A DNA stretch of 37,339 bases from positions 1 to 37,339 of the IMG/VR virus record IMGVR_UViG_2585427777_000002; one strand, given 5' to 3'. Shown here in pieces: positions 8,204 to 26,110 of the stretch. Both the position numbers and the translations under genes were made by a program. Source of the DNA: a virus. Taxonomy: Duplodnaviria > Heunggongvirae > Uroviricota > Caudoviricetes. Each line of letters starts with the position of its first letter. Position 1 is the stretch's first letter. The notes under the pieces were generated by a model, which made no database searches, was not told the DNA's origin, and worked only from the letters and a program-made list of their open reading frames with translations.

Positions 8204-8215
8204 GTGACATGTCAC
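8204..8215. repeat. 12-bp perfect palindrome GTGACATGTCAC
   Basis: Read directly; identical copy at 26099..26110, both at the 3' flank of a plus-strand cargo gene beside a terminator. Confidence 0.5.
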
Positions 8216-8224
8216 GATAGTTCC

Positions 8225-8495
8225 GTTTTGCACATCCCTGTGCCGCCGCCCGTCAGAAGAATCCTGCTTTGTCGTTGATGTATTCCGCGTGGGTCTGGAT
8301 ATCACGCAGGCATTTACTCACACCGACGATGTAGCAGAACATAGTGGTCAGCTCCGCCGCCGCGCCCGATACGTCGTGCCCGTCTTCCTGTAACTGGTTC
8401 AGCAAATTCATCAGCAGTGAGTTCTCCGTCAGGCCGAGAACACCAGACGGCGAGTGAATCAGGCTACGGTAGCCGGGCTTCAGTGGGGCACTGTA
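8225..8495. repeat. right arm of about 270-bp inverted repeat (3' end of AntA-type antirepressor gene plus about 28 bp)
   Basis: Reverse complement matches 7003..7275. Confidence 0.85.
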
Positions 8496-8903
8496 TTCTT
8501 TTTTGTCTTCCAGCTTGATCGCCTCCATAATGGCGGGCATGAAGCCTGACAAGACCTTCTCCACTTTTGTTTCTTGTTGTCTTAAACGTTTCTCGCATTC
8601 AATGAAGTAGCGTCGTACCTGACGACCTTTTTCGTTACGCTCGACCATCGCCAGCTCTTTGGCTGTATCGAGGGTTAGGTGGTAGTCTTTTGCAGGACGG
8701 CCTCTGCCTATTTTTTCCCGAACTTGGGAAATAATCATAAAGTCTTGATTTTCAACGAAGCCATATTCAGCAATTCGTTCGACAATCCACGAAGCAAATC
8801 GCTTACCCACATCGAGGAAAGTGTGTAAATCACGGGCATTAACGAGAAGAGCGGTTTCGTTGGATATAGTGCCGTTGAATACGGGGATGAGTTGAGCGTT
8901 CAT
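8253..8903 (-). CDS. antirepressor with AntA/AntB-type N-terminal domain
   Basis: 216 aa; N-terminus ARDLHTFLDVGKRFASWIVERIAEYGFVENQDF typical of AntA-type antirepressors; C-terminal 80 aa shared with 6553..7245. Confidence 0.85.
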   Translation of the reverse strand: MNAQLIPVFNGTISNETALLVNARDLHTFLDVGKRFASWIVERIAEYGFVENQDFMIISQVREKIGRGRPAKDYHLTLDTAKELAMVERNEKGRQVRRYFIECEKRLRQQETKVEKVLSGFMPAIMEAIKLEDKKEYSAPLKPGYRSLIHSPSGVLGLTENSLLMNLLNQLQEDGHDVSGAAAELTTMFCYIVGVSKCLRDIQTHAEYINDKAGFF

Positions 8904-9173
8904 GATGGCGTCTCCACTTAGCGAATTACATCACCACCGCTGAGACCAATCAGATGGTGGTGAACTGAACGGAGTTGGTCTTACCGGCCTAAGTGGTACC
9001 GGCGTCCTTTCGGACCCCCATTCAGCCCACCATAATTCTGGCATGACTGTGCTATACGCATAAAAAAACCACGTCTGGCGTGGTATGCGCCACTTAGTAA
9101 TCCGGGAGACCAATCCCGGCACTGGATTTTGCCAGTGCCTGATTACTATGGCACAAGAGGAATGCGATGTAAA
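8904..9173 (-). promoter_or_regulatory. structured 5' leader with attenuator upstream of the AntA-type antirepressor gene (paralogue of 6287..6552)
   Basis: Same three-helix arrangement as the left copy; attenuator region (about 9062..9095) has stems GTGG/CCAC and CCACG/CGTGG plus T7 run, and a downstream hairpin GGTCC-gaaa-GGACC replaces GGCACC-gaaa-GGTGCC. Confidence 0.5.
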
Positions 9174-9190
9174 TTTACCGCAAAGGTAAT
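9174..9190. promoter_or_regulatory. operator-like palindrome TTTACCGCAAAGGTAAT at the AntA antirepressor promoter
   Basis: Perfect TTACC-N5-GGTAA; inverted counterpart of the 6270 site. Confidence 0.6.
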
Positions 9191-9217
9191 GATAGACACA
9201 GACAAACATTAAAATCA

Positions 9218-9231
9218 ACCATATTTGGTTA
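9218..9231. promoter_or_regulatory. palindromic motif AACCATATTTGGTT (second motif family)
   Basis: Read directly; abuts a TTGATT -35-like hexamer of the minus-strand antirepressor promoter and lies upstream of gene 9337. Confidence 0.45.
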
Positions 9232-9336
9232 ATTCGTGTAAAAGAGCCAGCAGCGAGAAATTGTGCCGCGACGTAAAATAACGAGCATCTGCTGGCTTAC
9301 AACCAGCGATGTTTCAAATTTGTCACTACTATCAAC

Positions 9337-9735
9337 GTGCCATTCCACGGCGCAGAACTTTATGTTGTCAATCACAACGGCGAACCGTACACCCCAATGA
9401 AACCTATCGTTGAGGGAATGTGTCTAGACTGGAAATCTCAACATAAGAAGATTTCTCAACGCTTCTCGAAGGGTATGGTGGAAATCACCATACCTTCTGC
9501 CGGAGGGGTGCAAGCCATGATTTGTATGGCTTTACGAAAATTGGCAGCTTGGTTGAACAGCATCAGTCCAAACAAAGTCCGCCCTGAAATCCGCGACAAG
9601 GTAATCCAGTATCAGGAAGAGTGTGATGATGTGCTCTACGAATACTGGACTAAAGGCCATGTGGTTAACCCACGCAAAGCTAAAAAGGCGTTGCCGGGTA
9701 AAATCACTACTGAGCAACAGGAGGTATACACTTAA
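9337..9735 (+). CDS. P22 antirepressor N-terminal-domain-like protein (short, start uncertain)
   Basis: Motif MKPIVEGMCLDWKSQHKKI resembles the N-terminal domain of P22-type antirepressors; ORF opens with GTG and has no convincing RBS. Confidence 0.55.
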   Translation: MPFHGAELYVVNHNGEPYTPMKPIVEGMCLDWKSQHKKISQRFSKGMVEITIPSAGGVQAMICMALRKLAAWLNSISPNKVRPEIRDKVIQYQEECDDVLYEYWTKGHVVNPRKAKKALPGKITTEQQEVYT

Positions 9736-9759
9736 CACTTGATCACATTAGCACAAAAC

Positions 9760-9776
9760 ATTACCTTTAAGGTAAT
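9760..9776. promoter_or_regulatory. operator-like palindrome ATTACCTTTAAGGTAAT upstream of gene 9796
   Basis: Perfect TTACC-N5-GGTAA 20 bp upstream of the start; -35-like TTGATC 17 bp before it. Confidence 0.6.
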
Positions 9777-9795
9777 GTTATTGTGAGGAAAAGCA

Positions 9796-24765: not shown

Positions 24766-24972
24766 TTACTGACCAAGCAGCGTTTTACCGCTGGTATTAG
24801 CGGTTGATGTGTCGCCCCGAGAACCGGTAAGCAGCGTAGAACTACGACCAGCAGCAGCGCGACGGCGACGTGTTTCTTCGTCGCGGGCATCAACAACGGC
24901 GGCATCCTGCTCCTGTGGTGCTGCCTGAACTTCTGGTGTTGCAGGCACTGATGGTGAGCTACCCATGCACAT
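24766..24972 (-). CDS. hypothetical small protein
   Basis: 68 aa ORF with GGAG RBS 8 nt upstream. Confidence 0.4.
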   Translation of the reverse strand: MCMGSSPSVPATPEVQAAPQEQDAAVVDARDEETRRRRAAAGRSSTLLTGSRGDTSTANTSGKTLLGQ

Positions 24973-25061
24973 ATCAATGACTCCGTACGCAATTAAATTA
25001 TTACCAATTTAACCACATATGATTTATTTATCGTAGACAGTTGACATTTAACGCGCGAATT

Positions 25062-25078
25062 ATTACCTTTAAGGTAAC
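25062..25078. promoter_or_regulatory. operator-like palindrome ATTACCTTTAAGGTAAC with upstream TTGACA
   Basis: Perfect TTACC-N5-GGTAA; TTGACA at 25041..25046; divergent region between gene 24972 and the tRNA. Confidence 0.6.
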
Positions 25079-25399
25079 TAAAGAGTTCATTCCGGTTACT
25101 AACCTGACTGGCTTGTCGTTAAATTGAACAGGTGGAGTGAGCTTTTATTTTGAGCAGTACGGCGTATGGCACATGCGACGATAGCGGTCTGGATACGTTT
25201 AAGGGGCACCCTCCCTTGCTCGGGCAAACGAACCAGGTAGCCGGAATGTGCAAGTCGAGCGGTTTTATTCCGCGCACGGGGATTCACCATCCCGGCGATT
25301 CGGTGTGACGCCTCGGAAGAGACGAGGGTACAACGATGAGAGCATTTATGGAGCTGCGACAAAGTGTGGCGCATTAACAGGCTAAGTGCTCTCAGCGTT

Positions 25400-25476
25400 G
25401 TGGCATTAGCTCAGCTGGACAGAGCAACCGCCTTCTAAGCGGTTGGTCGCAGGTTCGAATCCTGCATGCCACGCCA
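25400..25476 (+). tRNA. tRNA-Arg (anticodon UCU), phage-encoded
   Basis: 77 nt folded by eye: 7-bp acceptor stem GTGGCAT/ATGCCAC, D-arm GCTC/GAGC, anticodon stem ACCGC/GCGGT with loop CTTCTAA, T-arm GCAGG-TTCGAAT-CCTGC, discriminator G and CCA end. Confidence 0.9.
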
Positions 25477-25519
25477 GAATCACGCCCAAGGACCGTGATG
25501 CCAGAAGTTCCAGGTGCTT

Positions 25520-25561
25520 GGCGGTGATAGTTTCCCTTGAAGGACTATCACCGCCCTTTTT
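25520..25561 (+). terminator. rho-independent terminator downstream of the tRNA
   Basis: 12-bp stem GGCGGTGATAGT/ACTATCACCGCC followed by CTTTTT. Confidence 0.65.
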
Positions 25562-25639
25562 ACAGCAGGACGCCATTGCGATGACTTCATGCTGTAAACC
25601 AGTACAGCCACGGAAGGCATAACTCATTGCTTCCAGTTC

Positions 25640-25663
25640 GCCCGGTTCGCCGGGCATTTTTTT
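25640..25663 (+). terminator. hairpin plus T-run immediately upstream of gene 25675 (terminator or attenuator)
   Basis: GCCCGG-ttcg-CCGGGC followed by TTTTTTT, then the RBS AAGGTGA. Confidence 0.5.
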
Positions 25664-25674
25664 AAGGTGAGATC

Positions 25675-26094
25675 ATGAAGACAATTGATATGTTGGCTAA
25701 GTATCTAAATGAATGGCCATTAAAATATTCTCGTATCGTTCAGGCTGAAGACTGCATTTTTTATGGCGTTCTTGCTGGTAATGAAATGCATTACGAAGTA
25801 ATTCAGAGTGAGGGACTGGCTGGGTTAACTCTTAGCGAAGACCATGGTACTAGCGTTACGTTCCATGACTGGATAACAGCACAACGTTCTGAAATGGAAA
25901 AAGGCGATGTTTTTGATATTTCTCGCGCTGTTTACGCTAAAGCAAAAAGTGATAATGATTACATGAGCGAACACTTATACAACATGAAGTTGCAATGCCT
26001 GCATGCGGCGCTTATTCAGAATGGGCACTTCGATAAAACAAGTGCCATCAATATTGCGGAAGCCATCAACGCTGGATTTAATGCCATTAAGTAA
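25675..26094 (+). CDS. hypothetical protein (cargo gene between terminase and portal)
   Basis: 139 aa with AAGGTGA RBS; opposite strand to the structural operon; flanked by terminators; no family recognised. Confidence 0.6.
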   Translation: MKTIDMLAKYLNEWPLKYSRIVQAEDCIFYGVLAGNEMHYEVIQSEGLAGLTLSEDHGTSVTFHDWITAQRSEMEKGDVFDISRAVYAKAKSDNDYMSEHLYNMKLQCLHAALIQNGHFDKTSAINIAEAINAGFNAIK

Positions 26095-26098
26095 CACC

Positions 26099-26110
26099 GT
26101 GACATGTCAC
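26099..26110. repeat. 12-bp perfect palindrome GTGACATGTCAC
   Basis: Second copy of the palindrome at 8204..8215. Confidence 0.5.

What the first reader, a model, noticed from the sequence alone, without database searches (positions are those of the whole stretch)
8204..26110. Identical 12-bp palindrome GTGACATGTCAC at the 3' flank of two unrelated cargo genes
The same perfect palindrome occurs at 8204..8215 and 26099..26110, each immediately beside the terminator of a plus-strand orphan gene. A specific 12-mer twice in 37 kb is unlikely by chance. It may mark the boundary of a recurrent cargo cassette or be a protein-binding site.
Basis: seen in the sequence. Interest (0 to 1): 0.4.

Follow-up and report, generated by a model that had tools for sequence, protein, structure and literature searches.

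The report
Conserved phage boundary box GTGAC-N2-GTCAC
The twice-occurring 12-base palindrome is a real, conserved DNA signal of epsilon15-like prophages that sits exactly where swappable cargo genes join the phage backbone, and it is most likely the docking site of a small, uncharacterised phage regulator found in several phage families.

Summary
GTGACATGTCAC is at 8204-8215 and 26099-26110 and nowhere else. The window is a phiV10/epsilon15-like (Uetakevirus) prophage. Both copies read stop codon, CGTGACATGTCACA, intrinsic terminator: copy 1 on the minus strand after the antirepressor gene, not after the plus-strand 211-aa gene; copy 2 on the plus strand after the 139-aa cargo ORF.

The box is conserved at equivalent places in phages of E. 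coli, Salmonella, Klebsiella and Enterobacter. These usually have three copies, at the ends of the early-right, cargo and late units. At least ten unrelated cargo ORFs abut it, and homology between genomes breaks at its edges.

In Proteus-type lambdoid phages it lies inside a cII-like gene, with synonymous sites frozen, so the DNA itself is selected.

Boxes GTGAC-N2-GTCAC co-occur with one regulator family (phrog_536; epsilon15 gp49, N15 gp46), whose stop codon often lies inside a box. Phages chosen only for that gene hold 9 boxes in 118 kb (0.11 expected); relatives lacking it hold none.

Best reading: an operator-like box of this regulator marking module borders. Binding and effect are inferred. 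This window has lost the regulator gene but keeps two boxes. I found no description in the searched literature.

The parts
8204..8215 (-). Box copy 1 (GTGACATGTCAC; 14-mer CGTGACATGTCACA on the minus strand, 8216..8203). Equivalent to site C of epsilon15, phiV10 and Tyrion.
   Evidence: site C in phiV10 19493, epsilon15 19517, Tyrion 20377
8178..8203 (-). Intrinsic terminator directly abutting copy 1 (AGGCCGCTTTCGCGGCCT plus TGTTTTTA), oriented for the minus-strand unit.
   Evidence: the same hairpin with varying loops occurs in relatives
8253..8903 (-). AntA-type antirepressor gene whose transcription unit ends at copy 1. It is preceded by C4 antisense RNA (8953-9037) and isrK (9062-9138).
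8142..8181 (+). 3' remnant of a small membrane-protein gene (53 aa in TL-2011b, phrog_14503), convergent on the terminator. Its 5' part is replaced by the 211-aa gene.
7474..8134 (+). 211-aa orphan ORF (phrog_1349) with its own terminator at 8116-8134. It is a neighbour of copy 1, not the unit that copy 1 closes.
26099..26110 (+). Box copy 2 (14-mer CGTGACATGTCACA at 26098-26111 on the plus strand). Equivalent to site B.
   Evidence: epsilon15 2142, phiV10 2262, Tyrion 2702, SPN1S, Kp4865-1
26115..26142 (+). Intrinsic terminator 4 nt after copy 2 (AGCCAGCCGATGAGCTGGCT plus TTGTTTTA).
   Evidence: compensatory stem variants in Klebsiella/Salmonella relatives
25675..26094 (+). Variable cargo ORF (139 aa, phrog_4846) filling the slot. 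Its stop TAA is 4 nt before the box.
25400..25670 (+). Conserved 5' flank of the cargo slot: tRNA-Arg(UCU) 25400-25476, terminators 25520-25555 and 25640-25655, RBS AAGGTGA at about 25664-25670.
26185..28331 (-). Terminase large (26185-27660) and small (27657-28331) subunit genes, the backbone convergent on copy 2.
28297..28360 (-). Position where relatives carry box A and gene X (epsilon15 gp49 family). Here only the terminator (28322-28305 plus T-run) remains, and an Ead/Ea22-like ORF (28328-28930) runs up to it. Both X and box A are absent.

Best explanation
GTGACATGTCAC is one form of a dyad-symmetric box, GTGAC-N2-GTCAC. It is a conserved cis-acting DNA element of epsilon15-like (Uetakevirus) and several other temperate phages of Enterobacterales and Vibrio. 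It is most likely the operator of a small dimeric regulator, family phrog_536 (epsilon15 gp49, phiV10 p55, N15 gp46, phiKO2 gp45). This protein is predicted to have a ribbon-helix-helix-like N-terminal half and a Cys-rich C-terminal half.

In Uetakeviruses the box marks three module borders. Box A overlaps the stop codon of the regulator gene itself, just upstream of terS. Box B closes the hypervariable cargo slot next to TerL. Box C closes the late operon or, as in this window, an antirepressor unit. At B and C it sits 0-5 nt upstream of an intrinsic terminator.

Proposed working: a regulator dimer bound at these borders modulates what RNA polymerase does at the adjacent terminator or the next gene start (insulation or read-through control). 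Because the same 12-14 bp sits at every border, it also serves as the fixed edge, and possibly as portable microhomology, at which cargo modules are exchanged.

Shown: the element, its conservation, its positions, DNA-level selection, and co-occurrence with the regulator family. Inferred: binding by that protein, and any effect on transcription or recombination. This window's prophage has lost the regulator gene and box A but keeps boxes B and C.
For: Real and non-random.

Conserved in samples not chosen for the box. Among TerL-selected loci of the E. coli type (80 loci) most have the exact box 73 nt after TerL, a few have 1-nt variants, and three have a different terminator and no box. Among Klebsiella-type TerL-selected loci about 37 of 64 unique downstream sequences have the exact box next to at least ten unrelated cargo ORFs. 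Epsilon15 and Tyrion have three exact copies at equivalent places; phiV10 has two exact copies and a one-mismatch copy at site A. It is the only repeated 12-bp palindrome in each genome.

Half-sites matter and the centre is free: the variants are GTGACAGGTCAC and GTGACCTGTCAC, with no co-variation between sites in the same genome.

DNA-level selection: in 80 cII-like genes (61-100% aa identity) the 12-mer is exact in 73 and one mismatch off in 5, while flanking synonymous sites vary.

Link to the regulator. Of 160 TerL-selected loci, 146 encode X, and 124 of those have the exact box at X's stop codon. A 57%-identical homologue has GTGACCTGTCAC 9 nt after its stop. Phages chosen only by X homology (Yersinia P2-like, phiKO2, N15, Vibrio K233) hold 9 boxes in 118 kb against 0.11 expected; in phiKO2 and N15 one box overlaps the regulator's stop codon, and in K233 one lies 30 nt before the terS start. 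TerL relatives without X (Acinetobacter, Pseudomonas, Sodalis) hold 0 in 98 kb.

Regulator features: PHROG annotation 'transcriptional regulator', and helix-strand-helix-helix secondary structure.

Border role.
Against: There is no binding or expression data; the regulator-box link rests on co-occurrence and adjacency only.

The structural model of X is poor (pLDDT 59) and has no significant fold or PDB match.

This window keeps two exact boxes without X, so the boxes can persist without the proposed binder. That could reflect recent loss, or a different or host binder.

Only 47 of 80 lambdoid loci with a box in cII show an X-like gene within 4.5 kb.

Positions are heterogeneous: before terminators, before ribosome-binding sites, and inside coding regions. 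No single transcriptional mechanism fits all of them.

A sigma-70 promoter reading (-35-like GTGACA) fits site A of epsilon15 and Tyrion by eye, but not sites B or C or the other variants.

That homology breaks at the box edges is partly a necessary consequence of the box being conserved, so it does not prove that crossovers occur there.

N15 and phiKO2 are related, so the independent lineages are fewer than the site count suggests.
Confidence: 0.5

Rival explanations
1. Pure recombination linker. The box has no reader protein; it persists as a short portable homology at module junctions, where RecT/Erf-type annealing or another recombination route swaps cargo. This would resemble the boundary sequences proposed for lambdoid phages or the PeSL cassettes of T4-type phages.
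For: Unrelated sequences abut both edges of the box. E. coli genome homology ends at the box edges. The same terminator module lies in opposite orientation relative to the antirepressor gene in different phages. RecT and an exonuclease are encoded in the window.
Against: A passive 12-bp linker would not stay invariant while the adjacent terminator loops and flanks drift. It would not be held at synonymous sites inside a cII-like coding region, away from any module junction. Nor does it explain the free central dinucleotide with strict half-sites, or the enrichment in phages that share one regulator family.
Confidence: 0.15
2. Site for a host protein of Enterobacterales/Vibrio rather than a phage protein, for instance a MatP-like reader. 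The box equals matS (GTGAC-R-N-Y-GTCAC) with the central base removed.
For: The half-sites are identical to matS (consensus quoted in PMC3603311). All box-bearing phages infect Enterobacterales or Vibrio, whereas Acinetobacter and Pseudomonas relatives lack it. The window keeps its boxes without X. Providencia burhodogranariea has three chromosomal copies in AT-rich intergenic DNA.
Against: Spacing is 12 bp, not 13 bp, in every phage copy. matS itself is reported as avoided in prophages. Apart from the Providencia intergenic copies, the Enterobacterales genome hits whose context I recognised were prophage contexts. A host factor does not explain why the box overlaps the stop codon of one phage gene family in podo- and sipho-type phages.
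Confidence: 0.12
3. RNA-level element. In the transcript the box acts as a 3'-UTR or inter-cistronic signal: a small hairpin GUGA-CNNG-UCAC, a seed of a 3'-UTR-derived sRNA, or a translational operator next to ribosome-binding sites.
For: The box is always transcribed as part of the unit it closes and lies immediately 5' of a terminator hairpin plus U-tail, the layout of 3'-UTR-derived sRNAs. In other phages it lies within 20 nt of an RBS or start codon.
Against: Predicted RNA structure is only a weak 4-bp hairpin, and the surrounding folds are no better than shuffles for the transcribed strands (z -0.9 and -1.4). Perfect two-fold symmetry with a free centre is the signature of dimeric DNA recognition. 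No Rfam family matches there.
Confidence: 0.1
4. Chance repeat or neutral hitch-hiker inherited with the neighbouring terminators.
For: Only two copies in this window; 2% of random sequences show some repeated 12-bp palindrome.
Against: Cross-genus conservation at three loci, conservation inside a coding region, and a 9 versus 0.11 enrichment in regulator-bearing phages.
Confidence: 0.02

Closest known systems
Stoperators of mycobacteriophage L5 and other Cluster A phages (own knowledge: Brown et al. 1997)
   Same: A short protein-binding motif dispersed through a temperate phage genome, placed in the tiny gaps at gene and operon boundaries and often overlapping stop or start codons. It is thought to act on transcribing polymerase rather than at promoters.
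   Different: Stoperators are asymmetric 13-bp sites, number 20-30 per genome, are orientation-dependent and are bound by the immunity repressor. Here the box is a perfect dyad with 2-3 copies. The immunity repressor of epsilon15 is annotated with a different operator (ATTACC-N5-GGTAAT), and the candidate binder is an early-right-operon protein.
matS, the MatP binding site of the E. coli Ter macrodomain (GTGAC-R-N-Y-GTCAC; PMC3603311)
   Same: Identical GTGAC/GTCAC half-sites, a tolerant centre, few dispersed copies, and a ribbon-helix-helix-containing reader in the case of MatP.
   Different: 13 bp versus 12 bp. matS is chromosomal, confined to Ter and avoided in prophages. No evidence that MatP reads the 12-bp form.
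Boundary or linker sequences of lambdoid phages, and PeSL regulatory cassettes of T4-type phages (own knowledge: Susskind & Botstein 1978; Clark et al. 2001; Arbiol et al. 2010)
   Same: Short conserved, regulation-associated sequences exactly at the junctions of mosaic modules and flanking hypervariable small ORFs.
   Different: Those are promoter/terminator-sized or loosely defined. Here it is one strict 12-bp dyad that also occurs inside genes under DNA-level selection and tracks one regulator family.
Late-regulator/target pairs encoded just upstream of packaging genes (lambda Q-qut, RinA/ArpU-type activators; own knowledge)
   Same: In Uetakeviruses the regulator gene is the last early gene, immediately upstream of terS, with its putative site between the two. 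In Vibrio phage K233 a box lies 30 nt upstream of terS.
   Different: Lambdoid and N15-like phages that carry the family also carry a separate Q-like antiterminator. Extra boxes lie at operon ends and inside cII-like and repA genes. No promoter consensus is conserved around the box.

Membership tests
matS (MatP site) | 13-bp sequence GTGAC[AG]N[TC]GTCAC | tested here: not met
   Both window copies and all phage copies are 12 bp (GTGAC-N2-GTCAC); consensus taken from PMC3603311.
matS (MatP site) | Bound by MatP; clustered in the Ter macrodomain | not testable with these tools
   No binding data; the chromosomal position of the prophage is unknown.
SlmA-binding site (SBS, GTGAGTACTCAC; own knowledge) | 12-bp palindrome with conserved AG...CT at positions 4-5 and 8-9 | tested here: not met
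   The box has AC...GT at those positions (direct reading). The SBS consensus is recalled from memory, not checked.
CRP/FNR-type site | TGTGA-N6-TCACA spacing | tested here: not met
   GTGA and TCAC are separated by 4 nt, not 6.
Epsilon15-type immunity repressor operator | ATTACC-N5-GGTAAT dyad, as annotated in the epsilon15 record | tested here: not met
   The seven annotated operators have a different sequence, and none coincides with a box.
Intrinsic (Rho-independent) terminator | G+C-rich hairpin followed by a T-run | tested here: not met
   The box itself gives only a 4-bp hairpin. The terminators are the separate hairpins at 8186-8203 (-) and 26115-26134 (+).
L5-type stoperator | Asymmetric site, many copies, one orientation relative to transcription, bound by the immunity repressor | tested here: not met
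   Perfect dyad, 2-3 copies per genome, distinct from the repressor operators. Resemblance is functional only.
Integron attC / gene cassette | 57-141-bp imperfect inverted repeat with R/L core sites, and an IntI integrase | tested here: not met
   The element is 12 bp plus an ordinary terminator. The only integrase present is a phage tyrosine integrase fragment at the prophage end.
Mosaic boundary (linker) sequence | Short sequence conserved at a module junction while both flanks are unrelated between genomes | tested here: met
Mosaic boundary (linker) sequence | Crossovers actually occur within the sequence | not testable with these tools
   Breakpoints at the edges of a conserved block are expected whether or not crossovers occur there.
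Operator of the phrog_536 regulator (epsilon15 gp49 / N15 gp46 family) | Dyad-symmetric site that co-occurs with the regulator gene across unrelated phage backbones | tested here: met
   146 of 160 Uetakevirus loci encode X, 124 of them with the exact box at its stop. 9 boxes in 118 kb of phages chosen by X homology versus 0.11 expected; 0 in 98 kb of X-less relatives.
Operator of the phrog_536 regulator (epsilon15 gp49 / N15 gp46 family) | Direct sequence-specific binding by the protein | not testable with these tools
   The structural model is of low confidence; no experimental data found.

The most novel reading that the evidence does not exclude
One small regulator family (phrog_536), shared by podo-, sipho- and myovirus-type temperate phages, reads a 12-bp box placed at the borders of transcription modules. 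The same boxes are the physical crossover points at which cargo genes and whole modules are exchanged. That would be a regulatory 'punctuation mark' that both insulates modules and drives the modular evolution of temperate enterobacterial phages, with orphan boxes (as in this window) letting a resident prophage respond to a regulator supplied in trans by a related phage.
Probability: 0.2. Interest if true: 0.7.

Novelty: new variant of a known kind. Interest (0 to 1): 0.55.

Why it matters
If the box is the operator of the gp49/gp46-family regulator, it gives a first functional handle on a widespread phage protein family annotated only as a 'hypothetical protein' or 'transcriptional regulator'; I found about 700 sequence clusters of it.

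It would define that protein's regulon in epsilon15-like, N15-like, P2-like and lambdoid phages. It would also explain why cargo (moron) slots in Uetakeviruses have such sharply defined edges.

In practice, the box plus its terminator is a reliable landmark for finding hypervariable cargo genes in these prophages, and for engineering insertions at a naturally tolerated site.

The element is absent from the otherwise detailed binding-site annotation of the epsilon15 reference record, and I did not find it in the searchable literature.

Tried and rejected
1. Packaging (pac/cos) site. The phiV10 and Tyrion records are opened inside box A, but both end 0-2 nt after the last gene's stop codon, so this is an annotation convention.

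2. Sigma-70 promoter using GTGACA as the -35 element. This is plausible by eye at site A of epsilon15 and Tyrion (17 nt to TAAATT), and one antisense match was found in L033. It is not conserved in other variants or at sites B and C.

3. RNA structure. Only a weak 4-bp hairpin forms, and z-scores are unremarkable on the transcribed strands. Rfam finds nothing there.

4. Stop-codon coupling. The 3-4 nt spacing at site B looked mechanistic, but at site C the spacing is 0-9 nt, and 38 nt in the window.

5. X as the single late activator. Lambdoid and N15-like carriers also have Q-like antiterminators.

6. Structure-based identification of X. The AlphaFold model has pLDDT 59; Foldseek against PDB and a profile search against PDB sequences gave nothing significant.

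7. Co-variation between the box centre and the genome: none found.

8. Literature searches for the 12-mer, its variants, Uetakevirus palindromes, boundary sequences, MatP-phage links and N15 gp46 found nothing relevant.

10. Providencia chromosomal copies were inspected but not explained.

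
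Full report
**1. Observation**

GTGACATGTCAC occurs exactly twice, at 8204-8215 and 26099-26110. No copy appeared in 100 dinucleotide shuffles. Allowing two mismatches adds only an unrelated site at 23012. GTGAC-N(0-12)-GTCAC finds only these two.

The window holds nine perfect 12-bp palindromes, and this is the only repeated one. In 300 first-order Markov simulations, 6 had any repeated 12-bp palindrome. About 0.002 copies of this 12-mer are expected per window and about 0.3 per 5 Mb. So the repeat alone is unusual at roughly the 2% level. The decisive evidence is comparative.

**2. Local anatomy**

The window is a nearly complete phiV10/epsilon15-like (Uetakevirus) prophage.

- Copy 2 follows the plus-strand 139-aa ORF 25675-26094. 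The layout is stop TAA, CACC, the box, 4 nt, then the terminator 26115-26134 with its T-run. TerL (26185-27660, minus strand) converges on it.
- Copy 1 directly abuts a minus-strand terminator (8203-8186, then TGTTTTT). It lies 38 nt downstream of the minus-strand AntA antirepressor gene 8253-8903, which is itself preceded by C4 and isrK RNAs.

Oriented as stop, box, hairpin, T-run, both copies share CGTGACATGTCACA.

**3. Conservation in samples not selected for the box**

E. coli type. Eighty IMG/VR loci were chosen by TerL protein (at least 99% identity). Most have the exact box 73 nt after the TerL stop. A few have single-base variants (GTGATATGTCAC, GTGACATGCCAC). Three have a different terminator and no box.

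Klebsiella type. Eighty loci were chosen with a Klebsiella TerL. They gave 64 unique downstream sequences, and about 37 of these have the exact box right after the terminator. On the far side lie at least ten unrelated ORFs, each with its stop codon 3-4 nt from the box. In an alignment of these regions the box columns are at least 97% identical. The terminator stem changes by compensatory substitutions (GCCAGC/GCTGGC versus GCCCGC/GCGGGC).

Complete genomes. Three sites are present in each.

| Phage | Site A | Site B | Site C |
|---|---|---|---|
| epsilon15 | 39612 | 2142 | 19517 |
| phiV10 | 39101 (one mismatch) | 2262 | 19493 |
| Tyrion | 41755 | 2702 | 20377 |

- Site A overlaps the TGA stop of the last early-right gene (called X here; gp49/p55/gp52), just before a terminator and terS.
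- Site B closes the cargo ORF next to TerL.
- Site C closes the late operon.

It is the only repeated 12-bp palindrome in each genome. SPN1S and Kp4865-1 also have site B. ST512-KPC3phi13.3 has a degenerate copy, and BUCT711 has none. The epsilon15 record annotates repressor, IHF, RNase III and integrase sites but nothing at the box. Its repressor operators are ATTACC-N5-GGTAAT.

**4. The cargo border**

In the E. coli type the slot has this order: tRNA-Arg, terminator, terminator, RBS AAGGTGA, ATG, variable ORF, stop, (CACC), box, terminator, then TerL on the opposite strand. An 'empty' form carries only an 8-codon ORF.

At copy 1, five genomes (the window, E. coli IAI39, TL-2011b, phiV10 and phiv142-3) share ...GGCATTCGTTAAAAACAAGGCCGCGAAAGCGGCCT-GTGACATGTCAC-G. 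After that they have four unrelated right-hand flanks.

Among 5,426 complete E. coli genomes, 525 match the region. The best matches stop at window 8216 or at 8203-8205, the two edges of the box. The 'cassette border' reading therefore holds descriptively. I note that breakpoints at the edges of a universally conserved block are expected in any case, so this does not prove that crossovers occur in the box.

**5. The box is selected as DNA, not merely retained at junctions**

An IMG/VR scan with the 14-mer was capped at 120 loci. Besides the Uetakevirus contexts it showed the box inside genes.

In Proteus/Providencia-type lambdoid phages the box lies about 60 nt before the end of a cII-like gene (phrog_163), in frame as CGT GAC ATG TCA. 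I collected 80 loci by cII-like protein similarity (61-100% identity). One of the six search peptides overlaps the box-encoded residues, which is a small bias. The 12-mer is exact in 73 and one mismatch off in 5. Meanwhile the codons on both sides vary, including at synonymous positions.

**6. Link to one regulator family**

X is phrog_536, annotated 'transcriptional regulator'. It has no Pfam match, and about 700 clusters of it are annotated 'hypothetical' in Enterobacteriaceae. Its predicted secondary structure is helix, strand, helix, helix, which is ribbon-helix-helix-like. A Cys-rich tail follows. The model is poor (pLDDT 59) and gave no fold or PDB match.

Uetakevirus loci. Of the 160 TerL-selected loci, 146 encode X. 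In 124 of these the exact box overlaps or abuts its stop, and in 14 there is one mismatch. The mismatches are mostly in the centre: GTGACAGGTCAC and GTGACCTGTCAC. The centre does not co-vary between sites of one genome. A 57%-identical homologue, in a locus picked for another reason, has GTGACCTGTCAC 9 nt after its stop.

Phages chosen only by X homology:

| Phage | Boxes found |
|---|---|
| Yersinia P2-like vB_YenM_42.18 | exact box plus a one-mismatch copy 33 nt upstream |
| phiKO2 | three boxes (GTGACTGGTCAC/GTGACCAGTCAC), one overlapping the stop of the X-like gp45 |
| N15 | gene 46 stop lies inside a box; a second box in repA |
| Vibrio phage K233 | three boxes (GTGACGCGTCAC, GTGACACGTCAC x2), one 30 nt upstream of the terS start |

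Together this is 9 GTGAC-N2-GTCAC boxes in 118 kb against 0.11 expected. TerL relatives that lack X (Acinetobacter Ab9, Pseudomonas PfDIW6 and part of Sodalis phiSG1) have none in 98 kb. N15 and phiKO2 are related, so the independent lineages are about three, plus the Uetakeviruses and the lambdoid group.

**7. This window**

tblastn finds no X. Where relatives have X and box A, an Ead/Ea22-like ORF runs up to the terminator before terS. The prophage therefore keeps boxes B and C as orphans.

**8. Interpretation**

Four findings fit a dimeric DNA-binding protein site best, and the gp49/gp46 family is the obvious candidate:

- a perfect dyad;
- strict half-sites with a free centre;
- selection inside coding DNA;
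- a tie to one small putative DNA-binding protein across four or five phage backbones.

What the complex does is not shown. The positions at operon ends, 0-5 nt before terminators or just before the next gene's RBS, suggest control of read-through or insulation at module borders.

The same constant 12-14 bp at every border gives cargo exchange a fixed edge and possibly microhomology. The rivals are a pure linker, a host factor such as a MatP-like reader of this 'matS minus one base', an RNA element, and chance. They are weighed in the rival explanations section.

**9. Host-genome test**

It returned mostly scattered hits across phyla, as expected by chance for a 14-mer in 596 Gb. The Enterobacterales hits whose context I recognised are the same prophage contexts. 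Exceptions worth noting are three intergenic copies in Providencia burhodogranariea and tandem copies in Candidatus Jettenia.

**10. Novelty**

No paper in the library contains the 12-mer or its variants in a relevant context, and none describes gp46/gp49 function. I rate it a new variant of a known kind: a dispersed operator-like box at module borders, with moderate interest.

Noticed in passing
window 6322-7245 (+) and 8253-9138 (-): There are two convergent immI-like modules, each with isrK RNA, C4 antisense RNA and an antirepressor gene (Bro-N type on the plus strand, AntA type on the minus strand). A 10-bp palindrome GTAAATTTAC sits in both upstream regions (6282, 9169).
   Followed up: partly
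window 25400-25476 (+): A tRNA-Arg(UCU) gene overlaps the mechanical 83-aa minus-strand ORF 25406-25657, which phage records annotate as a hypothetical protein. It heads the conserved 5' flank of the cargo slot.
   Followed up: partly
window 28297-29541: The prophage lacks the gp49-family regulator and most of the distal early-right genes present in phiV10 (p46-p55). Two Ead/Ea22-like ORFs run straight up to the terminator before terS. The prophage may be defective or dependent on a helper for late expression.
   Followed up: partly
window 28328-28350; L146, L295 2154-2183, L013, L023: A short conserved C-terminal tail ...(Y/K)(D/E)EFDG(F/L)* recurs at the ends of unrelated small ORFs and as 8-codon remnants right beside boxes A and B. 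It looks like a second recurrent junction sequence.
   Followed up: partly
L420-L499 (about position 4883 in most loci); L033 1499-1510: In Proteus/Providencia-type lambdoid phages the box lies inside a cII-like gene about 60 nt before its stop, with synonymous sites invariant. In L033 a weak antisense promoter-like match uses the box as its -35 element, which recalls lambda's oop arrangement.
   Followed up: partly
L354 828, L361 7314, L372 7440 (Providencia burhodogranariea): There are three exact 14-mer copies on three scaffolds of one genome, two of them in AT-rich intergenic DNA (after hisIE next to a GntR-family gene, and after an rpoC-like gene). This is far above chance for one genome and is unexplained.
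   Followed up: partly
L369 and L318 (Candidatus Jettenia); L328 (Bulleidia): Tandem arrays of the same palindrome, or of GTGACA half-sites, occur in unrelated bacteria. They look like iterons or operators of other systems.
   Followed up: no
L503 6769: Vibrio phage K233 also carries a 13-bp GTGACACCGTCAC that fits the matS consensus, alongside its three 12-bp boxes.
   Followed up: no
L502 36062 and L504 3238: In phiKO2 and N15 one box lies inside the repA replication gene, near an annotated partition site.
   Followed up: no
L294 and L296 record ends: The GenBank records of phiV10 and Tyrion are linearised inside box A, because they were opened right after the last gene's stop codon. The element is therefore split across the record ends and easy to miss.
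   Followed up: yes
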